Positions 10,519 through 62,718 of a DNA stretch of 64,000 nucleotides are shown piece after piece. Position numbers and translations under genes: made by a program. Below the pieces are notes generated by a model that saw only the letters and a list, made by a program, of their open reading frames with translations, made no database searches and was not told where the DNA came from. The DNA is from Eledone cirrhosa (taxonomy: Eukaryota). The stretch spans positions 87,916,001-87,980,000 of the forward strand of contig OZ024746.1 of the NCBI GenBank assembly GCA_964016885.1, given 5' to 3'. Within the stretch, counting starts at the first letter, position 1. Each line of letters begins with the position of its first letter.

Positions 10519-12307
10519 GTGAGTACAGTCGGCCGAGGACACCGGTGTGATACGTCAACAACTGAAGAGAGATTTCGAGGCATACCGGATCGAGAAGCTC
10601 CTGAAGGCCGCAGAGGAAAATAAGAGCCTCAAGAAATCCGATAGGGGCATGGCAATGTACAGATCGGAGGTGACGACCCTGAAGAACAGAGCTGGTGTAC
10701 CGGTCAGCGACAAGAGTGAGGTGGAACATGTTTGCGAGACTTTTACACGAAGCTCTTCAAGTTTGCCGGGAATGTGCAGCTGTTGCCGTCACTCCAACAG
10801 GAAGAAAATGTACCACCCATCCTTGTCAGTGAGGTCGAAAGAGCCGTCGGCTTCACGAAAAGCGGAAAGGCGACAGGGAAAAACGGCATAACATCGGAGG
10901 TGTTGAAGTCAGGCGGAGAACACCTCTGGAAAATCCTCGCCGAGCGATTCACACACTATCTGATCGAGGGAAGAATACCCTCGCAGTGGGAAGAGTCGAA
11001 TACCATCCTGATATACAAGAAGGGTGATAGAGAAGATCTGAAGAACTACCGACCCATATACCTGCTATCTCACGTGTACAAGCTGTTCATGAAGATAATC
11101 CTGAACAGGTTATCATGTCATCTGGACGAACAGCATCCGACAGAGCAAGCTGGCTTCCGGAAGAACTACAGCACGATGGAACACATATTTACTCTGACAC
11201 AACTGCTTGAGTGAGCGAAAGAGTACAATATGCCTCTTTGCGTCGTGTTCGTAGACGACGGGAAGGCCTTCGACAGCGTCGAAATCAACGCAGTGCTGAA
11301 CTCGCTGCAGAGGCAAGGAGTCGAGGCGCAATACGTTCAACTGCTCAAGGAGGTGAATTCCGGATGCACCACCGCCATAGCTCTGCTGTCATCACCCGTA
11401 CGAGTGCCGGTCGAGAAGGAAGGGAAGCAAGGAGATACGATCTGTCGCAAACTTTTCACCGCGTGTCTCGAGCAGATCATCAGAGCCCGTGACTGGCAAG
11501 GCGGTGTCAACATCAACGGCGAGATACTTACCTACCTCCGTTTCACTGATGACAGCGTACTCATCGCTAGAACCACGGATCAGCTTCTGACCATACTGAC
11601 GGAGCTCGACATCAAAAGCTCTGCAGTAGGCCTCAAGATGAACCGCATCTAAACGAATTTCATGCGGTCCGCCAACGTACCAACAGGTCGAATGGTGGTT
11701 GGCGGTGATGAAATAGAGGAGATGTAGGAATACGTCTACCTAGGACAAGAAGTGAACATGAACCGAGACATTGAGAGGAAGATCTCGCGGAGAGTAAGGG
11801 CATGAATGAAGGCGTTCAACGGCATAAGGGCTGTGCTCAATGGGAGTTTGGACAAGACCACCCGCGCCAACCTCTTCAATAGCACAGTTTTACCTACAAT
11901 GTTATATAGCAGTGAAATTTGGGCTGCAACGAAGAGAGAAGAGCAGAGGCTGGAGAGATCAATGCTAGGATTCTCGTTTAGAGAGCACATCAGGAGCGAA
12001 GTCATCAGACAGAAGTCCGGCGTAAGGGACGTCATCACGAAATATATGTGCAGCAAGTTCAGATGGGCTGGACACGTCGCCCGGTTCACCGATAATCGGT
12101 GGAGCCGCGCAGTTGCTGAGTGGTACCCGCGCGAGCGGAAACGACCACTCGGAAGGCCTCCACGAAGGTGGAGTTACGATTTTAGAAATATGATTGGGAC
12201 TACATGGAGGAGGAAAGCACGAACCAGAGAGGAATGGATGGCGTGCTGTGACAAGCGGCGCTGAATGGACGCCCGGCTGACTGGTCGGTAAAGGTGATCA
12301 AGGTGAT
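10516..12307 (+). mobile_element. 5'-truncated RTE-clade LINE, RT pseudogene
   Basis: Motifs YRPIYLLS, EQAGFR, DDGKAFDSV, KQGDTI, RFTDD, RWAGHVAR, RPLGRPPRRW. Frameshift near 10735 and stops near 11212, 11650, 11725 and 11803. 3' tandem tail AAGGTGATC-AAGGTGAT; TA at both junctions. Confidence 0.95.
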
Positions 12308-16487: not shown

Positions 16488-16840
16488 GGGCGGTAGATTG
16501 GCAGTGTCGGTAGAGCGTCATACTCTTGCAGCATAGAGTGCTGTCCCTTTACGCCCTGAGTTCAAATCCCACCGAGATAAATTTTGCCTTTCATCCTCAC
16601 GGGGTCGGTAAAATAAAGCACTAGTAACGCACTGGGGTAATTGCTGGCCTTGTGGCAAACGAAGAAACAAAGTATCGGTAGAGGTTTGGACGCCATGCTT
16701 TCTAGTATAGTTACGTCCCTTTACAGTCTGAGTTCAAATCCCGCCGAGGTTAACTTTGCCTTTCATCCTTACGTGGTCGATAAAATAAAGTACCAGTAAT
16801 GTACTGGCTAATTGATGGCCTTGTGCCTAAAGTAGAAACA
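16488..16840 (+). mobile_element. Head-to-tail dimer of tRNA-derived SINE, family S1
   Basis: Two units (16488-16670, 16671-16840), each with B box GAGTTCAAATCC, TTTGCCTTTCATCCT..GGTCG.TAAAATAAAG and a GGCCTTGTG..AGAAACA end. Flanked by GTTATAGTAAT / GTTATATTAAT. Confidence 0.9.
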
Positions 16841-17046
16841 GTTATATTAATAATATTATCTATAATGAATCTTGTTGCAGATCATATTTTTACTCAGGGG
16901 CGGACATTCAGCTGCTGACGATCTAAACTAAATTTTCAGACCTTCCTCTAAACAAATTTGGGTAGAAAAATATAGAATTATTATCTACGATTGTTTTTTT
17001 TATAATAATAATGGCAATGATAAAGAAAACTATATATATATATATA

Positions 17047-29724: not shown

Positions 29725-29945
29725 GGTTTCTTATATAGGCACAAGGCCAGTAATTTTTTTTTAAGTTTTTTTTTTTGGGGGGGGGGGGAGTTGATTAAAT
29801 CTACCCCAGTGCGTGACTGGTACTTTATTTTATCGACTCCGTTAGGTTGAAAGGCAAAGTTAACCTCGGTGGGATTTGAACTCAGATCATAAAGGGCCGT
29901 AACTCTATGTTGCAAAGCTCTACCGATACTGCCACTCCACCACCC
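29725..29945 (-). mobile_element. SINE family S1, long subtype
   Basis: Full S1 match. About 15 bp TSD ACGATCATGAAATAA (29709) / ACGATAATGAAATAA (29948). Confidence 0.9.
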
Positions 29946-33399: not shown

Positions 33400-34560
33400 T
33401 AAATATTTATAACTGTACTATATACTATACTACGAGCTGTCTCACCTATGTACAATATATTATTATCTCTACATTGTCCTTCAGTACATATTATGCTATA
33501 TACTACGTTTCTAGTTTTACAGTTAATGTGGGGGGCTTAGTTTACAGATTATACATGTCATAGCTACACAGGGAGGTCTTTGAAAATGGTATGTATTGCT
33601 AATAAGTGTTTTTATTGAGGTACCTGTTCTTTCTATTATCTTAATGTTGAGTTTATCTTTATCTAGGGCCCTTCTAAATTTGTAAGCTAATTAACCGCTA
33701 GGGGTTGTATCGATGAACATTACACTCTGGTATGTATTGCTATCATACCAGGAATTTATTCTATTAACCTTTTTTATAGTTCTTTCTATTATATTCCAAA
33801 ATTTGCTCCTATACAAGGGGCAGGTCCCATTTGTATCATTATTTACCATTTTTTCCCATTTGTTTCTGGCTCCTCTATATACTCTGATGTTATCTCTCTG
33901 ATTGTAACCAGAGAACTGCATATGGTGGATGAAGTGTTGTATGTGTCTCTCTAGTTCTTTGGGGTTGCACATGCGGGACACGTTTCTCATCACCCGTACC
34001 AGATGCGCAATGAGTATAGTGATTTTGGTATGGTCCAAAACAGCTGAGTTTCGGTGGAACAGATATTTGGAAGTCATGGGTTTGGCATAATGCGAATGGA
34101 GGATTTGTTTTTTGTTATTAATGGTATATAACCAGAGCTCTCTGTCTAGTACAGGGAATCGATGGTTGGGGTTTTTGCTTTGGTAGTCTTTAGTAACTCT
34201 AATACTCTGGTGGATGGAGTTAGCTATTTGCTGGATGCTTTCCATGGTGTTTTTCTCTCATATCTGACTGTTCTCTAGTGGGGGTGTTTTTACTACGATG
34301 TTTATATCATCAACGTAGCGGGAGTACATTATCAGGGTTAAGAGGTTGCTGTTGTTCTTTAAGTTTAAGTTTAAGTCTATTGTCTCACCATACCATGAAT
34401 AGGTTAGCTATGTCACCTGAAATGCTAACACCAATGGCTGCTCACTCCTCTTGGGCATATGTTTTTCCATTAAATTTAAACATATTTTCCTTAAGTGTTA
34501 ATTTTATACTCGCCCCCACCGCATGTGCAATCATTGTTTTTAGTACATCCTGGTTTTCGG
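33400..34560 (-). mobile_element. Penelope-like element, RT plus GIY-YIG pseudogene
   Basis: Minus strand reads FNGKTYAQEE*AAIGVSISGDIANL, YSRYVDDINIV and HYAKP, then C..TCIIC..NCKTRNVVYSIIC..LYIGETARS. Confidence 0.9.
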
Positions 34561-44510: not shown

Positions 44511-44702
44511 AGAAGGATGATGTATTGGAAATATGGGTAGAGCGTCAGACACCATGTTTTACCACATAGAGTTATAGCCCTTTACGTCCTGAGTTCAAAT
44601 CTCGCCACCGTTAGCTTTGTCTTTCATCCTCACGGGGTCGATAAAATAAAGCACAAGTAATACACTGGAGTAATTGCTGGCTTTGTTCCAAAAGTAGAAA
44701 CA
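44511..44702 (+). mobile_element. SINE family S1
   Basis: S1 body; flanked by ATTATTTCTA at about 44496 and 44703. Confidence 0.88.
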
Positions 44703-46953
44703 ATTATTTCTACTGTTACGTCGGTATGATTCGCTGGCTGCGCTGCTTAGGATAGGCATGTTTCTTATTCTAAAATATTCGTATTAAAAATGCTCCAAAT
44801 ATGTTGTTCTTTTTCTTATTCTTGTTTATGATGTTGTTTCTCCTGCTATATAAAAAGCTTTTGTCTGAATTACTGTTATTTTTGTGTTTTGTTTCTGTAA
44901 GATTTTTTGCTTCTCTAGTAGAGTAGGTAACAAAGTTCGTGTTCGTGTTGATAATTGTTTTTGTTTTCTTCCCTTAGCTTTGATGTTCTTAAGATTGCAT
45001 TACTTTTTTAGTTTGCTGAAAGTACACTTCATAATTTCCTCGTGCAATGTTGTTATTGTTGTTGTTGTTCTTGTTGTTGCTGCTTTCATTTATTTTTTTT
45101 ACTATGGCTGTTCTGCCAGGCGGAAAAGAATTCGTTTTCTGTCATCATATGTTTTAAACAAATTTAGGGCGTATTGGAAACTAGATACACATCTATTCCA
45201 TACTAACCAGTTTAACAAGTAACTGTTTTTTTTTAATACTAGAAAAGAATATTACATATTTTAAAAAGATACGTTGAATAACAATGTATTTTTGCTTGTA
45301 ATATGAGTATAACAAAAAGCAAAATTAAAATCTAATAAAGAAGACATAATCCACGGTCACCCCCTCGCGTGGGCAAGTGCATTCTCTATGTTTCCTCCTC
45401 CAGTTAACAAGCTGATACTCTGAGAGGGCCTTTCACATAGTCCATGCCCGCCACTCTCCACCACCTTTGAACAAACTGGTTGTAAGTTTAACTTTTAACC
45501 CTGATTATCCTATTCAATTGAAACTTGAGAAGGAAAAAGACCATCAAAGACAACAAAAACACAAAATCTTCAACAACAAAAACAACTAGAGGCTTTAAAT
45601 AATAATACTTATAATTATATAGAAAATGAAACAACGCTCGATTTTAATGAAATATATGATTTGCTAATTGTGCCAAAATTTGTTTTCAGAGGAAGCCAAA
45701 TTTTCTCTGATTAGATGCCAAGAGAGACTAGGAAATAGGATTATATTAATAATTAGTCTAACCCGCTTAAATAGAAATTATTCGCTACTGCTATGCCTTG
45801 GATGGTTTGTTAAGTACATTAATGGCAACTCCTTTCAAAGTAATTCCCCACGATAATTTCCCATCAATTAAAAAGCAATTTTACTGTAGCACTAATACTG
45901 TGTTTAAGCATAAGAGAGTTGTATATTAAAATATATATAATAGCTTTATATACAATAAAACGATATGTGGTCTCGCTGTCGAAGAAACTATTATTTTACT
46001 TAACGAGACGAAATTATAAAAAAAAAAATACCCAAACGAAATAAATGTGTCTCTATATTGCTCTGTGAATATATCACCGACTTGTGAGTATGTTTTTGAG
46101 AATGTCAGACAGTGTATTTTCAGGTTTTGTTAATCTGTTACCATTGACACACTCAAAAATGCACTGTCATGACATTGACTATAGCCTCTATAAAATCTTG
46201 CGTGACAACCACGTCATTTGAATATATAGCTAGCTTGGCGATAGCACTAAAACAGGGTTCAACACATACTCATGGTGTATGAGAAAACATTTATAAATAT
46301 ATACAATACAGTTATATAAATATCCATATAAGCCTCGCTGTCAAAGAAAAAAATCTTGTTTCGAAAGGAAAGGAAACGAATATATATTATTTTTCGCTAT
46401 TTTCCTGTGGGACTGTACCACTGAGTTGCATGAATTTTACGAGTGTGGGGCAGCATCATTTCAAGATTTGTTAATCTTTAACAGTTAGACTCAGTGAAAA
46501 TGTGTTGGTAAAAAATAGACTAATGTATTTTGAATTATCCGTGCATAATTAGTTAAACTCGCATTATATGCAAATGACCATGTTCAGCCGATGTTTCTGT
46601 GTGTAACATGAGATGATCATCTCCACCAAATCATCATCACGAAAAGTCTATATAGACTATAGTATATTTCAGGCCAGTACGTTTTGAGTGAGTGTCTATG
46701 GTACAAGTTTAACAAGTCTTAAAACAGAGCAGACTAAAATATTCAAAACATGGCAACTAAATCATGTTCACAGAGGAAAATAGAGAAAAAAGTATTTTTT
46801 CAATATTTGTTTTGTTTGGTTCCGAAATAATATTTGTCTATAGGGAAAAAAGACGAAATCGAAAATGCAACTGTAGTCTTTTTTTTTTTAAATATATATT
46901 TAATTGGTTCCTTTACCGGTTTCGCACTTCTTCTGCTTTTCGCATCCAGCACC

Positions 46954-49250: not shown

Positions 49251-49306
49251 TGTTTCTACTTTTGGCACAAGGTCAGCAATTATATCAGTGTATTACTGGT
49301 GCTTTA
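49251..49306 (-). mobile_element. Severely 5'-truncated SINE S1 with perfect 16 bp TSD
   Basis: GTTTCTACTTTTGGCACAAGG..TTACTGGTGCTTTA between TACGTGTACGTATAAT at 49232-49247 and 49307-49322. Confidence 0.9.
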
Positions 49307-50270
49307 TACGTGTACGTATAATAATGATAATTTATATATATATATATATATATATATAGCCATTTCAATCTAGACTATAATAAAGTAAGGAGTGCGGGAA
49401 GGCGTACGGTTTATCTCTTTTAATCCAATTAGCAACATAAGTTGCATTATTTTGAATAAATAATGAATTAAAATTATCTACTAAATTTCGTAGCTGTTGA
49501 TTAGATATATTTTATTGTTTAAAATTTAGCGATCGCTTAAATAAACATTCATATATTTCCGGCACTAATTATCACCTAATGCAGTTTATATATAATATCG
49601 TCTTTTATTAAAGCATCATGGAATACGTTACTGATTACATAAGAGAATGTTACATAAGAGAGTGTAACGCAGTCTTCGTTCAATTTCTGTGTAGATTGAA
49701 AATTACAATTTTATTTGATGTATATCTACATGCTTATATATTTGTATTTTATTAAATAATGTTGCAAATGTGAGTTAAAATATGAACACATAATATATAC
49801 AGGGTATATAAATAAATACACAGTAGAATAAAATAACATTTTTGTTCAATATATATATAAATAACATGATAAATGCTTAGATAAAAAAAATTGCTCGCGA
49901 TTCTTTGAGAAGGATATATTCATTTAATGGTACAATATTTAAAAAAAATGTAAAGGAAGGGTTGAGCAACCGAGCCCCCATCAGAGGAAAGGACAGCAGC
50001 GGCGAGGAGTACTAGACAATCTCTCTAATGATTTCTAGGCAACCCAGCACACTCGCAGTGTTTACTCGGGTGATGGCGAGACTAATATCAATATTCACAC
50101 TACACATGCTAGCAGAAAACCGCCCGAGTCTGGTTTTTCTGCTACTATATATAAATCTTCTACACAACTAGAATTATTTCATTCACAGGAAATCACCAGG
50201 AAAACCCTGTTGGTTTCTTTCGAATTGTTGTTTACAATCTACAAATGTATTGTGTATCTTACTTACTCTG

Positions 50271-50362: not shown

Positions 50363-50917
50363 CAAAGTATCATGAAACTTGAAGCTCCTCAAAGGGCAAT
50401 CACGAAAAAGATAGATGGCATGTCAGACCTTGACTACTGGGGTCGATTGGAAAACCTGAAACTTTACTCACTCCAACGTCGCCGTGAGCGTTATATTATC
50501 TGCATGATGTGGAAAATGTTCCATCATCACTGCCCAAATGATGTTGGCATCGCCTTCAAGATACACCCAAGGCTTGGGCCCCGTGCTATCCGTCCCATTC
50601 AAAAATCTAAATCGCAACTCATAACAACAATACGGCACAATTATTTCACCTCAATCGGCCCTGCTCTCTTCAACATCACACCAGGACACGTCAAAACAGA
50701 AACTGACCACACAAAATTCAAGAAGTCTTTGGACAAATTCCTCCAAGTAATCCCGGACAAACCACCCACACCCGGATATGTCTCCGCAAACAGTAATTCT
50801 CTTCTCGAATGGGCCATGGTGCCCAAATTCTGAATTGAAAGACTTCGCCAGGTGGTGCTATTAAGTTAGACATGGCCTGGGCCAATACTGGCCAAAACAT
50901 TTCAAAGTTATTCAAAG

Positions 50918-50920
<3 letters not shown>
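50361..50920 (+). mobile_element. 5'-truncated CR1-group LINE 3' end inserted in (TA)n
   Basis: Open 153 aa ORF2 C-terminus (LEAPQRAITKKI..YWGRL..LYSLQRRRERY..FKKSLDKFL..IPDKP) with tail (TTCAAAGTTA)x2 at 50901-50920. Confidence 0.92.
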
Positions 50921-51009
<89 letters not shown>

Positions 51010-54473: not shown

Positions 54474-54649
54474 GTGTTTCTATTTTTAGGCACAAGGCCA
54501 GCAATTAACCAGTACATTACTGGTACTTTATTTTATCGACCCCGTAAGCATGAAAGGCAAGGTTAAACCCGGCGGCATCTAAACTCAGATCATAAAGGGA
54601 CGTAACTCTATGCTTCAAAGCATGGTGTCCGACTCTCTACCGATACTGC

Positions 54650-54650
<1 letters not shown>
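54474..54650 (-). mobile_element. SINE family S1
   Basis: S1 match. 3' end GGCCTTGTGCCTAAAAATAGAAACACTTATTATT; the 5' end abuts (AAT)n. Confidence 0.9.
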
Positions 54651-54685
<35 letters not shown>

Positions 54686-54914
54686 TTTTCTTTATTAACC
54701 ACAAGGGTTTACATAAAGTAGACATTAAGGACAGTACAGGACAATAAAGGACGGTACAAATGGGCATTTCTGCGTGTAAAAAAACAGAGGTTGAAATAAA
54801 ATTCCCCAATAGGGGGGAGACTTCCGAGGGACATTTGTGGAGAAAGCCCATTAAAAGACCACAGTGGCCCTGACCACCAGGGCAAGTGCCCTCTCCCAGT
54901 TTTCCACCTTTAAT

Positions 54915-57900
54915 TTACAGACACATACTCAGAGAAGGCCCATTCATTCGGGCCATACTTGCTTCTCTCACCCATCTTTCAACAAAATGCTGGGAAGAGA
55001 GCACTTCCCTCTCTACCCTGATTTTCCTTTTCAAATGAAATTTGAAAAAGTTAATCAGGGCATCACCGAAGAGGTAAGTGCTCGTCTTCAGCCCTTTCAA
55101 ACGTGTCCACCATACTATCTCTTTCGCCATGGCCACCAGACAGATAAAAACTGCCTGCCCTTCCCGGCTAAAGGAAGGGGGCGGGGCAATCCTCACGATG
55201 GACTCAGCTCATAGCTGGATCCGTCCTACACGTGACGGCAGGTGTTCGACAGAAACCCACAAGTCAGCAATGCTCGGACACAGGACGAGTGCGTGCAGGA
55301 CGGTTTCGTCGCCCTGCGCGCATCTCGGACATGCCCGGCTGACGGCACCTCCATGCCTGTAGAGTTTATCCCGAACTGGCAAAGCTCCTCGGTAGCACTG
55401 CCAGGCCAGGGATTTCTGGAAGTTGTCCATAGGCCCCGGCCCGAAAGTCCTTCCGAAGAGATTGGCTAGTTGATTTTCGTCGACGCCTAGAGTTTCTCCA
55501 AGTACGTCGTCGCTCTTCCCCTCCACTAATCCCCTATAGAACGCCAAGGTGGAGTTTCCACCGATCACATTGCCCGATTGGTCGAGGGCTGTGAGCGCCT
55601 GAAGACATTCCAGTCTCCAAGCGCTCCCTCTCGGTCTTCGCCTGACCCAGGACTGCAGCTCCGTCAAGGAGACGAGCTGGGGAAAAACGTGTCTTGCAAA
55701 CGGCGACCACACCTGATCACCGTCGAGGAAGAGGTGGAGATGTCGTATCCTGAGTGCGTGTCTGCGCATCATCAGCCACGGCATGCCCAGCCCTCCACGT
55801 AGCGGGTGTTGACAGCAGATGGACCGCCTGACCATCGGAGCGCGTCCCTTCCACAAGAAGCGAAAGAGCAAACGCTCCAGCGCAGTCAGGCGGGGCTTAG
55901 GACAAGGTACGACGGTCAGGCGGTAGTAGATGACGGATGCGATGTACGCATTCGCCACCTCCGCTCGACCTTTCAGGGATAGCTTCCTCTCGGCCCATTT
56001 CTGGGTGAGAGAAGCCACCCTGCTCGTCACCTCGTCCCAGTTTTTGTCCGTCTGGAGGTCTGGACCGAACAAGACCCCTAGCAATTTAACCGGTCCGTCC
56101 GTCCAGCGCCCGACGACGCTGTTGGACGGCATGGACCTGCCTCTCCAGGTGCCGAGCTGCAGGCCCACTGACTTTTCCTGGTTGATCATTGCTCCTGTCA
56201 CCGCTTCGTATTCTCTTAGTGTAGTGCCGATCACCTCGATGTGTTTGGCGTTCGACACCACTACGGTGACATCGTCGGCATATGCTGACACGGATCTTCC
56301 GCATCCTAGTTCGCGCGGGACCCCCCTCAACGTCTCCAGTTTGTGCAGTAATGGCTCGAGAGTCAATACGTACAATAGGGACGAGAGGGGACATCCTTGG
56401 CGGACCGAGCGCATGATGTTGAACGGTTCCGAAAGGTGACCGTTCACTCTCACTACAGAGCAGATGTCGCTGTGCATGGCAGCGATCCCGCCTCTGAAGA
56501 CGGGCCCAAAGCCAGCCGCCCTCAGGACTCCCGCTAGGTAACGATGGTCGACCCTATCGAAGGCTTTCGACTGATCTAAATTGATCAAAGACCCATCCGT
56601 GCCAGGTTCCTTAGCTACCCTCTCTACGATGTATCGCATGAGGTGGAGGTTGTCGTGGATGGATCTGTCGGGAATGGCGCATGTATGTGCCTCTCCCAAC
56701 AGACCACCAACGACAAGCGCCAACCTCTTTGCTAGCACCTTGGCCAAAATCTTGAACTCTGTGTTTAGCAGAGTTATGGGCCGGAAATTATCTATGTTAT
56801 CCCCCTTGTTCGGATCCTTTCTCAGCAGCGCCACCGCTCCTCGGCTCACACAGCTGGGAATTCTCCCGTTCTGTTGCCAGTTGCAGTAGACGTCCGCCAA
56901 GAGGCCTCCGAACAAGTTTGGCATTTGTACGTAAAGTTCATAGGGCAGAGCATCCAAACCAGGCGATTTACCCCTTGTGCAACTAATCATTGCATCCCGT
57001 ACTTCAGCGGTTGTTATCGGCTTTTCGCAACACTCCGCCTCAGTGGCCGAAATCCGCGGCAGTCCGTCGTGGTAGACACTAAAGTCCATCCCTCGACCCG
57101 GCCCGCCACTGCCCCCGAACAGTTGAGCGAAGTGTCGCTGAAAAGCTTCACACGTTTGCCCGGGATCGAGTAGCATGCGCCCGTCGTGGTCCACCAAAGA
57201 CCGGATCGTGTCTTTGTTGCCACGACGCGCCTCCGCCACTCGGGCCCATTGAACGGCTTTCGTCCCCTCGTTTCTGAGAGCACGCACCCTAGCTCTGACA
57301 ACGCAGCCTTCGTGCTTTGCATTGAAGAATTGGTCAAGGGCCAATTTCGCCGCAAGTACGTCGGTCACGATGCCTTTGCTAAGCGCCTCATCTAATTTTC
57401 TAACTAATTCTCCCTCTGCTCTATTTTTCTCTATTGCTAAAGTCTTACTAAACCTAATGGACTCTATTCTAATTGCTCTTTTCAGAGCAAACCACCACTT
57501 GTTGTTGACGATGGCCCCCGTCAACGCCCGCTTAACTAGTTCGCTAATCCGGTCTCTGTAGGCCTTGCGCGCTGGTAAGGACGCGTTTAGCTTCCAGTAG
57601 CCGGGTCCTCGTCTATGAAGCCTATCTAAGTCAAGCACACAGATCACGAATTTGTGGTCCGTGTAGCTGACTATCTTGAATTGTGGACAGCCTATGCTAG
57701 ACCTATCTATTTCCCTACAAAATACTCTATCTAGATATGATCTGGATGACCCTATGCGATTTGTCCAAGTCCACATTGGTACATTCGGGAAATCCATTCG
57801 GTACCTGTCAGACAGTTCAAAACGTCTGAGCAGGTTGGTGAGACTCTTGCACCCCCCTTCCCTATCCACTAATCCCACACAATCCCAGCGTGCATCTAAG

Positions 57901-58222
57901 ATCCCGTTCCAGTCGCCCACTAACACTAAAGAGCGGGACGTTCCAAGAAAGGTCTCCAGACGCCGGAAGAAATCAGGCCGCCCTGATCCAAACCTCTCCG
58001 AAAAAGCACAGCAACTCCTCCCTCCGATCCCGGACGGCTGGGAGATGCGTACACATCGTAGCCGCCGAAGATCGGTGCGAAAGCCTGTGCTTCGGAGATT
58101 CTGGTCTCGCTGATGGCCACTACATCTATGTTTAGTGACCTGAGGTCGTTGAGCAGGTGGCCCTGCTTCCATGACGACCCCAAGCCACGCGCATTTATGC
58201 TGCCTATTCTGAGTGAGGTCAT
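54915..58222 (-). pseudogene. Tx1 ORF2: APE endonuclease, reverse transcriptase, C-terminal zinc knuckle (disabled)
   Basis: Starts MTSLRIGSINARGL..ISETR..GGVAVL. A deletion/frameshift near 57990 removes the VYAP region. Then GDWN, LDRVF, TDH, GYWKLN, FRPITLLN, LDQSKAFDRV, VRQGCPLS, YADD, CPRC..ETVLHALVLC. Premature TGA at 55209-55211; frame continues to 54915. Confidence 0.93.
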
Positions 58223-58256
58223 GTTGAAAAGGAGTGGAAAAGATGGGAAAGACCAC

Positions 58257-60206
58257 TTACCTTACTTCTCGTAGGGGAAGGACGGCTTTTCCATCCTTTT
58301 CACTGCTTGTGGCCTCCTCAGGAAGGATGTCCTTATAAATCCTCCTGGAGAGTGCTTGTCGGAAGTCTCCGATGTCTGTGGGGAATTTTTGTTTTAGTGT
58401 CATGTACGTTTTCTGTGTGATGCGAGTGATTTGTATGTGTGGAGGTGGTGTGAATTTTGGGGTTGTTGTGTAGTCTTTTTCTGTGATGCTGGTGTTGTGT
58501 TGGATGTAGTGTAATAATTGCTTGTTGTTCAAATTTAATGCTGTGTAGTGTGTATCGTTTTGGTTGTTTTGTTTTGTTTGCGTTTGTTGTGGGTTTGTTT
58601 CTGTTTCGCATTTTGGTGACTTTTGTGGTGTAGGTGATGGTGGTGTTGGAGTTAATGATGGTGATGGTGTTGGTGTTTGGGTTGATGGGGTTGGTGATGC
58701 TGTGTGGATGGTGGCATATCTGTCCTAACTTTTTTGTTTCTTAGTTTATTTGTTTCCCTCTGTATTTTGTTTTTGGAGGGGGAAGGAAGATAATTTTTTC
58801 TTTTTTGGTTTCTTTTTTTTTTCCGGATATCGTTTCCCACTCCTCGTCGTCACAATCTGTCTCCAGTTGTGATAGGCCGGGGAGTGGAAAATCCTCCACA
58901 GCCGTTAGTTTTGGTTGTGGTGTGGTGGATGGTGTAGGCGCTGGTGCTAGTTCTGAAGCGTTGGGTGGTGGTGGTGTTGGTTTTGCTACTGTTGCTGGGG
59001 TTGTTGCTGTTATAGTTGCTTCTGTTGTTGCTGCTACAGTTGTTGCTGCCATCTCTGCTACTGGTGGTGTTGATGGTTGTGTCACTGGGGTGGGTAGGAG
59101 AGGTGGCCTCAACCTTTTAGCCTGAGAGCAGAAAGCCCTTAGGTGGGTTCCTTCACCACAAACGACACACCTAGGTCTTCTGCCCTCGACAATTACCGTG
59201 AGGTGGCTGCCGTCAGTGAGGTCTATTACCTCTGGGATCTCCTCAATGCTTTTTTGGTCCGCTTGGATCAGGAGCTCCATCCCAGATCCGGACCAGTTTT
59301 CCTGCTTTTCTTTTGCTACTGCTATTATTTTCGTGTTGGCTTCGATGCCGGCGAGGACAGCCGCTATTAGCCAGGGAATTTCGATGGCCGGTGGAACGTG
59401 GGTCACCCTGATCTTTACGAGTCTCTGGCCACAATAGCTTGGGACGAGTGTGAGGTCGTCACTTTTTAATGGGGCCATGGAGTGTTCTCTAGCCTCCTCT
59501 GGTGTTTCAAAGAACACATCCACGGTTCCATACTTTTGCCCACGTCTGATGTGGGTTTTTCTTGCCCGCACATTTCCCAAAGCTTTTTGGATTTGGGACT
59601 CGGATGCCCGTTCCACTCGGCGCGATTTTACATTTATTGTTCTATACGACACAGTGCACAGGCGCCGATGCTCCATTTTATTAGGTGGGAGGTGAGGCTG
59701 ACCCTGTACACATCTTTCTTTACCATTTGTTTGGCATTTTCTAAATCTTCTTGAGTTACCGTGAACGCTTCGAATTGTTTTGCTACGATGGCGAAACTGA
59801 GGGTCGGTTTTATAATGTCATTGTTGTTGTTGTTGCTATCGTTATTTGTGTTAATCTTAATTTTTGTTTCAGTTTTGGTGGTGGTGACGTCATTCGTCTT
59901 TGGTGCGGAAGAGTCCATTTCGACATCACGAGTTAATTTATTTTTTTCTTCTTTTGTTTCTGTTGTCGCGGTGGTGGTGGGGGTGGTGGTTGTCGCGGTG
60001 GTGGTGGTGGTGGAGGCTTTAACATCTGCAGTCATTGGTAATGGCGGGAAATGAATGTCTGCCTGAGACAAATTTAAAATATTGCTACTGCTTATATTTT
60101 TTTTTGTGTTGGCAAACGTAGTAACATTTAGAATGGTGGTGTCGGTGTGAGGTGTTATCTTGTGAGGAAGGCTTTCAGCTGCTTCGTGCAGAGGGGAATT
60201 AGCCAT
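58257..60206 (-). pseudogene. Tx1 ORF1 (gag-like: RRM-like region, CCHC knuckle, low-complexity tails), frameshifted
   Basis: ATG at 60206, frameshift in an A-run near 59677, CVVCGEGTHLRAFC (CX2CX4HX4C), further shifts at about 58500-58800, stop about 35 bp before the ORF2 ATG. Confidence 0.85.
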
Positions 60207-60415
60207 TTTTCTTCAAAGAAATTTTTGGATAATAATAAAAGTTAAAATTTTGGGCACAAGGCCCCAATCTTTTTGGGTGTCCTTTTCGGAAAACAATGTA
60301 TGTGTGCTTATAAACAGTTTACAATAACATTTTCCATAAATGGCAATTTTTAAACAAACAGAAATAACAAACCTTTGCGGAGCTCACGATAATACGATTT
60401 CCTACGTAGGTCGCC

Positions 60416-60469
<54 letters not shown>

Positions 60470-60874
60470 TGATATGTATGTTCCAATAGACAAGAATGTA
60501 TCTATAAAAACATTTGAAAAATTGAGCAAGTATAAGGACCTGGAGATAGAAATTGGAAAAATGTGGAAATTGAGAACTAAAACAATACCAGTGGTTGTAG
60601 GCGCTCTGGGAATGATACCTAAGGGGTTTAACGACTACTTATCGCAAATCCAAGGAAACCCGCGTATAGGAGAAATACAAAAGATAGTACTAATGGGAAC
60701 TGCCCATATACTAAGGAAGATCCTGTCAATAAAAGTACATCACAAGTCTAAACACTAAGGATGCATGTGTGAATATGTGTGTTCTTTCTTGAACATGGCG
60801 GACCTTGTTGTCTCTTGAGGTCACTGGTTGTGACTTGGTGATAACTCGTATAAACATAAAGCAAGATAAATGCA
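60470..60874 (+). mobile_element. 5'-truncated R4/Dong-clade element (restriction-like endonuclease C-terminus) in (TAA)n
   Basis: IIDMYVPIDKN..EKLSKYKDLEIEIGKMW..IPVVVGALG..IQKIVLMGTAHILRK, a short 3' UTR, and (TAA)n on both sides. Confidence 0.9.
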
Positions 60875-60904
60875 AATAATAATAATAATAATAATAAAAA
60901 TAAT

Positions 60905-62030: not shown

Positions 62031-62540
62031 GGGGATCAATCACTGGCTAACATTACGCATTTTCCTATTAATTGTGGTACAATCGGAAATGTTGTTCGTA
62101 ACACACTGAAACACACACATACACATGCAGACGCACGCGCATACACACGTAGACCCACGTTAACAGACACGCACACACACACAGACGCACACATATATAC
62201 ACACACATATCTATCTATATATATATATGTATGTAATACAATAACAGAGATAGCTTTAAGCTAGACTCTGACTGCTAACCATCTCACTCAACAAACATTA
62301 GGTTATATGTTAGTATAAACCTAATTTAAGTGTTTGGGGTGCTAACTATATGTATTATGTGGAAAGCCAGTTGTATTATTTTATGAGATATAATTAAAGT
62401 TAAAATATATCTCTATATATATGTATATAAATATATATGTGTATATAAATATATATGTATATATACACACAAACACACATACGCACTCACACACGCTCGC
62501 ACACACATATGCCCCCACACAAACACATAAATATATATAA

Positions 62541-62718
62541 TTGTTCCTACTTTTGGCACAAGGCCAGCAATTACTCAGTGCATTACTGGTACTTTATTTT
62601 ATCGACCCCGTAAGGAGGAAAGGCAAAGTTAACCGCGGCGGAATTTGAAATCAGAATGGCAAGGGCCGTCACTCTATGCGTCAAAGCATGGCGTCCGACC
62701 CTCTACCGATACTGCCAA
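62541..62718 (-). mobile_element. SINE family S1
   Basis: S1 match; 3' end GGCCTTGTGCCAAAAGTAGGAACAATTAT. Confidence 0.9.

What the first reader, a model, noticed from the sequence alone, without database searches (positions are those of the whole stretch)
54474..54710. SINE S1 shares its 3' terminus with the Tx1 LINE: candidate LINE/SINE partnership
Seen: the Tx1 3' end (element strand) is CCTTGTG-GTTAATAA-AGAAAAC-ATTATT. S1 copies end CCTTGTG-CCTAAAAAT-AGAAAC-ACTTATT (54474), CCTTGTG-CCTATATA-AGAAAC-CATTATT (29725) and CCTTGTG-GCAAACGA-AGAAAC (16650). Established: SINEs often carry the 3' tail of the LINE whose RT mobilises them. Most described partners are L2, CR1 or RTE, and I know few Tx1-partnered SINEs. 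Inference: the dominant SINE here is driven by this Tx1 family or a relative. I cannot check whether this pair is already in Repbase/Dfam.
Basis: partly seen in the sequence, partly recalled or inferred. Interest (0 to 1): 0.85.

Follow-up and report, generated by a model that had tools for sequence, protein, structure and literature searches.

The report
Octopod SINE carries Tx1 LINE terminus
A short repeat with an estimated 400,000 copies in this octopus-like genome ends in the same short signature, lands on the same ATTAT site and leaves a similar-sized duplication as a group of Tx1-like LINE retrotransposons, so it is likely copied by their enzyme, a familiar kind of parasitism with a rarely reported partner.

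Summary
SINE S1 and the LINE both end CCTTGTG-N8-AGAAA-NN|ATTAT in the same ungapped register. In 790 kb of unbiased genome the exact motif occurs 84 times: 79 in S1, 5 at Tx1-like LINE ends, none elsewhere. It is the conserved end of a whole radiation of Tx1-like families with otherwise unrelated 3' UTRs. The 7-mer is the loop and closing pair of a small C[CUUGU]G hairpin whose stem covaries between S1 and the LINEs. These LINEs split into (TCTA)n- and (ATT)n-targeting lineages. S1 uses only ATTAT, with duplications of 12-25 bp, like the ATT group. Best reading: ATT-targeting Tx1 ORF2 mobilises S1 (tail as signal 0.72; Tx1 as driver about 0.85). The exact family cannot be named. Against: only 14-16 of 22 bases match, single S1 copies do not fold the hairpin as their best structure, and a young CR1-like tail has a comparable internal match. 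Seven literature searches found one Tx1-driven SINE (SINEU, inferred from targets) and no octopus pair; Repbase/Dfam were not checked.

The parts
54685..60415 (-). Full-length Tx1-like (L1/Tx1 group) LINE, family 'A', 5.7 kb, flanked on both sides by (ATT)n
   Evidence: the same 5' end sits after (ATT)n in 4 other loci
54918..58222 (-). ORF2 (AP endonuclease, RT, zf-RVT). In this copy it is broken by a ~36-codon deletion with frame change near 57988 and a TGA at 55209-55211; 96-97% identical to an intact copy
   Evidence: intact copy L242: Pfam PF03372, PF00078, PF13966; best PDB hit human L1 ORF2p E 4e-51
58257..60212 (-). ORF1 region, split over three frames in this copy, no Pfam match
54804..54815 (-). 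CCCCTATTGGGG hairpin in the LINE 3' UTR, kept across Tx1-like families, absent from S1
   Evidence: (3031 genome-wide matches of hairpin plus terminus, 0 for the reversed control)
54697..54709 (-). LINE terminal hairpin AACC[CTTGT]GGTT
   Evidence: (54 of 54 copies pair at all four positions)
54685..54696 (-). LINE terminus AATAAAGAAAAC, containing an AATAAA hexamer that S1 lacks
54650..54684 (-). (ATT)n array between the LINE 3' end and the S1 copy
54475..54649 (-). SINE S1, short form, missing ~14 nt at the 5' end: A/B-box-like head, body, 3' terminus
54488..54500 (-). S1 terminal hairpin TGGC[CTTGT]GCC(T/A)
   Evidence: not the minimum-energy fold of single copies
60416..60469 (-). (ATT)n array at the LINE 5' end
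60470..60876 (+). 3' fragment of a Dong/R4-like LINE in the same microsatellite, opposite orientation, followed by (TAA)n
62538..62715 (-). S1 copy (short form)
16501..16844 (+). Two S1 copies head to tail
29726..29918 (-). S1 copy (long form, with C-rich spacer before the terminus)
44532..44706 (+). S1 copy with a 12-bp target duplication starting ATTAT
49251..49307 (-). 5'-truncated S1 (tail only)

Best explanation
S1 is a high-copy short retroposon that ends in the same CCTTGTG-N8-AGAAA terminus and inserts at the same ATTAT target, with a similar-sized duplication, as the ATT-targeting Tx1-like LINEs of this genome, and it is likely copied in trans by their ORF2 protein, which would recognise the shared terminal C[CUUGU]G hairpin. 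Shown: shared terminus and register, covarying stem, shared target and orientation, overlapping duplication lengths and ages, many intact LINE copies. Inferred: S1 is transcribed by Pol III from its A/B-box-like head. ORF2 binds the hairpin plus the AGAAA end. The endonuclease nicks next to ATTAT and the RNA's 3' AUU bases pair with the nicked strand to prime reverse transcription. The second nick lies 12-21 bp away. S1 dropped the LINE's AATAAA and upstream CCCCTATTGGGG hairpin, which a Pol III transcript would not need (inference). Each insertion duplicates its ATTAT site, which would explain tandem S1 and S1-LINE clusters such as the one in this window.
For: Motif confined to S1 and Tx1-like ends: 84 of 84 hits in 790 kb. 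All 10 Tx1-like ORF2 C-termini found in that sample end in the motif or a variant of it, although the families are only 48-96% alike in protein. All 7 Tx1-like ends scored match S1 when anchored at the 3' end (p 0.0005-0.016); 6 of 7 non-Tx1 ends do not, and RTE3 reaches p=0.043 for short S1 only. Stem: S1 has G-C where every Tx1 family has C-G; pair 3 is A-U in family A and G-C in others and in S1. 81% of cells pair against 63.5+/-4.6% in shuffles (0/500) and 21-60% for slid controls; RNAalifold finds the same 3 pairs unprompted. Target: ATTAT follows 74 of 100 S1 ends; TCTA-type 0 and AAT-type 0. TCTA-targeting Tx1 families form one clade (100/99) and ATT-targeting ones lie outside it. TSD: 25 of 58 S1 copies have >=11 bp (12-25) against 81 of 3000 mismatched controls. 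ATT-type Tx1 insertions with readable junctions give 12, 14, 15, 17, 18, 19 bp and one array-inflated 45 bp, all starting AT(T/C); TCTA-type give 17-21 bp. Ages overlap: short S1 median 6% from consensus (2-26%), long S1 12%, family A 1-12%, family E 3-14%. Tx1-like is the largest LINE group by ORF2 coverage in the sample, 29.5 kb of 790 kb.
Against: The match is short (14-16 of 22 bases) against 35-61 bp at 72-95% for bivalve pairs (PMC11481361, passage). By local alignment the short S1 tail scores only 16 (p=0.054) against the window's family but 20 (p=0.017) against a CR1-like tail. The hairpin has 3-4 pairs and is not in the minimum-energy fold of either S1 copy folded (2 of 2). The S1 flip is one evolutionary event, and two pairs forming by chance has odds near 1 in 16 (my arithmetic). 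Three of nine Tx1 rows break pair 3; these rows came from a pattern that fixed that base. Tx1 ends are followed by a median of 6 ATT units but S1 by 2. Only 8 of 135 ATT-type Tx1 ends gave a readable duplication, two of them the same duplicated locus. TSDs of CR1-like, RTE and Dong could not be measured. The LINE panel is incomplete: 7 non-Tx1 ends. The family A age profile comes from similarity-selected loci.
Confidence: 0.72

Rival explanations
1. Tx1 ORF2 mobilises S1, but the shared terminus is a relic or convergence, and recruitment depends only on the 3' AUU bases pairing with the target (relaxed recognition).
For: Hairpin weak and absent from single-copy S1 folds. S1 lacks the upstream hairpin that Tx1 families keep. 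SINEU was tied to Tx1-Mar by target alone, with no LINE sharing the SINEU-1 3' end (PMC4494074, passages).
Against: Loop and three stem pairs are kept in both S1 forms (34 of 35 loops and 32-33 of 35 per pair in the short form; 8-10 of 11 in the long form). They are also kept across Tx1 families whose remaining 3' UTRs do not align.
Confidence: 0.13
2. A CR1-like LINE is the driver; its tail holds TGGCCTGGGCCAA, close to the S1 TGGCCTTGTGCCAA.
For: Local score 20, p=0.017 against short S1, above family A's 16. The family is young and abundant (150 hits at 99-100%). CR1 and RTE are the commonest partners (PMC3747384, passage).
Against: The match lies roughly 20-35 nt before the CR1-like end and is not significant when anchored (11 of 26, p=0.30) or for the older long S1 (p=0.29). 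The element ends in TTCAAAGTTA repeats and sits in (AT)n-type arrays. Its copies are almost identical, whereas S1 copies are 2-26% diverged.
Confidence: 0.06
3. A Dong/R4 element, or a LINE not sampled here, drives S1, and the Tx1 likeness is chance plus shared use of ATT/TAA microsatellites.
For: Dong/R4 elements share the same arrays: 15 of 59 family-A ends abut one. The panel of LINE ends is incomplete.
Against: Dong ends are followed by (TAA)n, the opposite orientation to S1; 0 of 100 S1 ends show it. Three Dong ends do not match S1 (anchored p 0.11-0.95).
Confidence: 0.09

Closest known systems
SINEU and Tx1-Mar of crocodilians (Kojima 2015, PMC4494074; passages and section 15 read)
   Same: A SINE assigned to Tx1-clade machinery by shared target preference and overlapping ages.
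   Different: SINEU has U1/U2 heads and targets a Mariner element, and no LINE sharing the SINEU-1 3' end was found. S1 has a tRNA-type head, targets ATTAT, and shares the LINE's 3' terminus.
Stringent SINE/LINE pairs with a shared 3' stem-loop: maize ZmSINE2/3 with LINE1-1_ZM, Chlamydomonas SINEX-3_CR with L1-1_CR, eel L2 pair (Ohshima 2013, PMC3747384; passages and part of Table 1 read)
   Same: LINE 3' end conserved while the rest diverges; hairpin with conserved loop and variable, compensated stem shared with the SINE.
   Different: The shared part there is ~50-80 nt with stable hairpins; here it is ~25 nt with 3-4 pairs. The partner here is an animal Tx1-like microsatellite-targeting LINE. 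'Tx1' and 'octopus' do not occur in that review's table.
Microsatellite-targeting Tx1 families Kibi (TC)n, Koshi (TTC)n and crocodilian (TTCC)n/(TTTC)n families (as described in PMC4494074 section 15; Kojima and Fujiwara 2004 not read)
   Same: APE-type L1/Tx1-group LINE flanked by a microsatellite, with the target tracking the protein lineage.
   Different: Targets here are (ATT)n and (TCTA)n. Relationship to Kibi/Koshi was not tested.
Octopus OK/OR1/OR2 tRNA-derived SINEs (Ohshima and Okada 1994, not read; named in PMC4824008 and PMC4758252 as CORE-SINEs)
   Same: Octopod host, tRNA-type head, very high copy number. I recall S1-like sequences among them; this is a lead only.
   Different: No sequence comparison was possible. 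No partner LINE is named for them in the passages read.
Bivalve HCD SINE/LINE partnerships (Martelossi 2024, PMC11481361; passages read)
   Same: Mollusc tRNA SINEs with LINE-derived tails.
   Different: Partners there are CR1, CR1-Zenon, L2 and Nimb; 'Tx1' does not occur in the text.

Membership tests
SINE/LINE pair with shared 3' tail | SINE 3' end similar to LINE 3' end at consensus level, at the terminus | tested here: met
   short (14-16 of 22 bases) but terminal and in register
SINE/LINE pair with shared 3' tail | Shared stem-loop with compensatory changes | tested here: inconclusive
   Pairing pattern supported; not the best fold of single S1 copies
SINE/LINE pair with shared 3' tail | Same target site, orientation and TSD length | tested here: met
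   ATTAT 74 of 100; TSD 12-25 versus 12-19 bp; few readable LINE junctions
SINE/LINE pair with shared 3' tail | Overlapping activity periods | tested here: met
   LINE copies not an unbiased sample
SINE/LINE pair with shared 3' tail | No other LINE clade matches better | tested here: inconclusive
   True for 3'-anchored match in a panel of 7 non-Tx1 ends; a CR1-like tail has an internal match; panel incomplete
SINE/LINE pair with shared 3' tail | Trans-mobilisation depends on the tail | not testable with these tools
   needs a cell assay
L1/Tx1 group LINE | ORF1 plus ORF2 with AP endonuclease, RT and C-terminal zinc knuckle, L1-like RT | tested here: met
Tx1 clade (as against L1) | Target-sequence specificity and no poly(A) tail | tested here: met
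Tx1 clade (as against L1) | RT groups with named Tx1 references (Tx1L, Kibi, Koshi, Keno) | not testable with these tools
   No named Tx1 reference was returned; turtle and fish relatives at 30-42% are unnamed
tRNA-derived SINE (SINE2) | Short, non-coding, interspersed, TSD-flanked, high copy | tested here: met
tRNA-derived SINE (SINE2) | tRNA-related head with A and B boxes | tested here: inconclusive
   A-box-like TGGCAGTATCGG and B-box-like GTTCAAATCC in the consensus by eye; Rfam gave no tRNA match on the one copy scanned
MetaSINE | Meta domain directly after the head | tested here: not met
   By-eye comparison with the bivalve Meta sequences in the PMC4824008 supplement; the cuttlefish MetaSINE sequence is in a figure that I could not see
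CORE-SINE (octopus OR1/OR2) | CORE domain | tested here: inconclusive
   At most a weak by-eye likeness to BivaCORE-SINE2; OR1/OR2 sequences not available

The most novel reading that the evidence does not exclude
Octopod Tx1 LINEs are stringent elements that recognise a minimal CUUGU hairpin, the smallest LINE recognition signal in the pairs I read about. A tRNA SINE captured just this ~25-nt signal and used it to reach hundreds of thousands of copies. That would make Tx1, not RTE or CR1, the engine of a large part of the octopus SINE expansion, and would be the first Tx1/SINE pair with a shared 3' terminus.
Probability: 0.45. Interest if true: 0.65.

Novelty: new variant of a known kind. Interest (0 to 1): 0.5.

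Why it matters
SINEs are a major share of octopus repeats (11.6% of the O. vulgaris assembly, PMC13282606; described as octopus-specific expansions in PMC8967140), and the passages read name no partner LINE. This names a candidate engine for one family of about 3.8e5 copies (~2% of this genome, extrapolated from 101 tails in 790 kb). It also gives the first sequence evidence I could find that animal Tx1 elements use stringent 3' recognition. Intact ORF2 copies and a 13-nt hairpin with natural compensatory variants make this directly testable. The general arrangement is textbook, so the surprise is moderate.

Tried and rejected
Meta-domain assignment of S1 (my first recollection): rejected on comparison with published bivalve Meta sequences. 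A SINE with a longer Tx1-derived tail: two genome-wide patterns returned only Tx1 ends (20 of 20 loci are LINE-type UTR ends) or S1 point variants and S1-Tx1 neighbours (210 matches, first 100 listed). A Tx1 family with exactly the S1 stem: patterns gave 24 and 47 scattered matches, mostly mutated copies of known families or S1 variants. Tx1 targeting the S1 head: rejected, since the LINE has (ATT)n on both sides and only 11 of 59 family-A ends abut S1; others abut Dong (15), Tx1 5' ends (9) or other DNA (24). Metagenome scan: 12 hits, none with Tx1 ORF2 or S1, treated as chance. Rfam on an S1 copy: only microsatellite-driven miRNA matches. PDB search with the broken endonuclease frame of the window: weak. 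No RNA holder listed. Contigs of four runs cover both elements but say nothing on ends or expression. A k-mer census to test 'dominant SINE' was swamped by other high-copy words and left the question open. TSDs of CR1-like, RTE and Dong elements were unreadable.

Full report
Setting. The window is G000:C6:87916001-87980000 of a 3.0-Gb animal genome. The closest named protein relative of the LINE's RT region is from the octopod Argonauta hians at 72%, so the host is taken to be an octopod.

The observation. The four quoted ends are present. On the minus strand a 5.7-kb LINE runs from 60415 to 54685 with (ATT)n on both sides. Its 3' array leads directly into an S1 copy (54649-54475). A Dong/R4-like fragment lies beyond the 5' array in the opposite orientation. 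The locus is a nest of insertions in one microsatellite.

The LINE. The family is young and abundant: 150 scored hits at 96-100% protein identity, many with 1152-codon frames; 8 of 8 such loci fetched held the full frame. The intact ORF2 has endonuclease, RT and zf-RVT domains, and its best solved relative is human L1 ORF2p (E 4e-51, against 6e-20 for R2). It has no poly(A) tail and is tied to a microsatellite, which fits the Tx1 clade as described in PMC4494074 (section 15). No named Tx1 reference was available for a tree. The window's own ORF2 is broken by a deletion with frame change near 57988 and a stop at 55209.

The terminus is a clade feature. The 3' end is fixed in 30 of 30 DNA-hit loci and 29 of 30 protein-hit loci. 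A pattern joining an upstream CCCCTATTGGGG hairpin to the terminus has 3031 matches genome-wide and 0 for the reversed control. Of the first 30, 27 carry Tx1-like ORF2 at 49-76% identity, and most end in (TCTA)n-type repeats. In an unbiased sample of 79 stretches of 10 kb, all 10 Tx1-like ORF2 C-termini end in the motif or a variant. A tree of 36 dereplicated genome rows (those with at least 230 of 359 residues) and 7 database proteins puts the TCTA-type families in one clade (100/99). The ATT-type families lie in at least two other lineages; two long decayed rows join each other and are unreliable.

The SINE. S1 has a short (~190 nt) and an older long (~220 nt) form with the same terminus. 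There are 101 tails in 790 kb, about 3.8e5 in the genome by extrapolation. Divergence from consensus has a median of 6.3% (49 short copies) and 12.4% (9 long copies). The head has A- and B-box-like motifs by eye; Rfam gave no tRNA match on one copy. The body is not the Meta domain (by eye, supplement of PMC4824008). ATTAT follows 74 of 100 ends, and neither the TCTA type nor the reverse AAT type occurs (0 of 100 each). 25 of 58 head-to-tail copies have a duplication of 12-25 bp starting at that ATT, against 81 of 3000 mismatched pairs (an earlier, looser count on a partly selected set gave 40 of 79 against 43 of 600).

Is the match more than chance? The exact motif CCTTGTG-N8-AGAAA occurs 84 times in the unbiased sample: 79 in S1 (one re-assigned by eye), 5 at Tx1-like ends, 0 elsewhere; shuffles give 0. 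Against single representative ends, all 7 Tx1-like families match both S1 forms when anchored at the 3' end (14-18 of 26, p 0.0005-0.016). Three Dong ends, two RTE ends and the CR1-like end do not; one RTE end reaches p=0.043 for the short form only. One result runs against the reading: in local alignment the CR1-like tail scores 20 (p=0.017) against short S1, above the window family's 16 (p=0.054). That match is internal, is absent for the long form, and belongs to a near-identical young family that ends in its own repeat within (AT)n.

A hairpin. The shared 7-mer is C[CTTGT]G. The flanking bases that differ between SINE and LINE are complementary within each element: AACC/GGTT in family A, GGCC/GGCC in family E, GCC/GGC in the TCTA group, and TGGC/GCC(A/T) in S1. 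On 12 representative ends MAFFT keeps the loop in register. 81% of cells pair, against 63.5% in shuffles (0/500) and 21-60% in slid controls, and RNAalifold predicts the inner three pairs. Limits: the rows are related, the three S1 rows are one event, and four Tx1 rows came from a pattern that fixed one stem base. The hairpin appears in the best fold of both LINE tails folded but in neither of two S1 tails.

Insertion signature. ATT-type Tx1 insertions with readable junctions have duplications of 12, 14, 15, 17, 18, 19 and an array-inflated 45 bp, beginning at the ATT (8 of 135 ends readable, two being one duplicated locus). TCTA-type insertions give 17-21 bp. This overlaps S1. A difference remains: Tx1 ends carry a median of 6 ATT units and S1 ends 2. 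Dong/R4 elements share the arrays (15 of 59 family-A ends abut one) but end in (TAA)n, the other orientation.

Mechanism. The most likely model is stringent trans-mobilisation. A Pol III transcript of S1 presents the hairpin and the AGAAA end to ORF2 of an ATT-targeting Tx1 family, which nicks at ATTAT and primes on it. The shared sequence, stem pattern, target, duplication and age overlap are shown. Transcription, binding, nicking and priming are inferred from established LINE biology (PMC3747384, passages). Which ATT-type family is responsible cannot be said. Family E's end aligns with S1 if one base pair is removed from the stem (by eye), and family A is the most abundant ATT-type family in the sample (5 of 7 ends).

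What is known. Seven searches found one SINE assigned to Tx1: crocodilian SINEU, by target preference, with no LINE sharing the SINEU-1 3' end (PMC4494074, passages). 'Octopus' and 'squid' do not occur in the review listing 58 pairs, and 'Tx1' occurs there only outside the table (PMC3747384). Bivalve partners are CR1, CR1-Zenon, L2 and Nimb (PMC11481361, passages). 'Tx1' is absent from PMC5786205 (passages). PMC4758252 mentions only the crocodilian case (passages). A 2026 O. vulgaris annotation lists L1-Tx1 and SINE families without the word 'partner' (PMC13282606, first third and passages); its supplements were not opened and might bear on this. PMC8967140 was read in passages. PMC4824008 was read in passages, section 10 and supplement parts 1 and 4 plus a search. 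Ohshima and Okada 1994, Repbase, Dfam and SINEBase could not be consulted, so prior description cannot be excluded.

Verdict. New variant of a known kind; interest 0.5.

Noticed in passing
L150-L179; G000 genome-wide: A sister clade of Tx1-like LINEs with the same terminus targets (TCTA)n instead of (ATT)n: a target switch within one radiation.
   Followed up: partly
L260:5059-8547 (+); L246; window 60470-60876 (+): At least three Dong/R4-like families; two sit back to back with Tx1 in the same ATT/TAA arrays, in opposite orientation.
   Followed up: partly
window 50363-50921 (+); L195-L209: Very young CR1-like LINE (150 hits at 99-100%) ending in TTCAAAGTTA repeats inside (AT)n arrays, with a strongly folded 3' UTR (z -3.9).
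   Followed up: partly
L210:1585-1612, L229:1580-1609: Tx1 insertions of only ~25-28 nt, just the terminal hairpin and AATAAAGAAA, with clean 17-18 bp duplications.
   Followed up: partly
L244, L259, L261, L016: Head-to-tail chains of different Tx1-like families separated only by (ATT)n.
   Followed up: partly
window 60255-60261 (-): An S1-tail-like stretch (GGCCTTGTGCCCAAAA) in the 5' UTR of the LINE itself.
   Followed up: no
window 10720-12306 (+) and 33691-34257 (-): Decayed RTE LINE ending GGTCAAGGTGAT before (AT)n, and a Penelope-like fragment.
   Followed up: partly
L062:6082-6230, L087:2850-3080, L094:4625-4800: Older SINEs sharing the S1 head and body but with a different, longer tail (TCTGGAAGAAATC...), suggesting tail exchange.
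   Followed up: no
L087, L063, L064, L079, L317, L332, L348: An abundant RTE-like family with a long structured 3' UTR that may be the partner of another octopod SINE.
   Followed up: no
L241:189-330 (-): A metagenome contig has a CCCC/GGGG hairpin ~120 nt before a Tx1-like terminus and an A-rich run, but no RT upstream; probably chance.
   Followed up: partly
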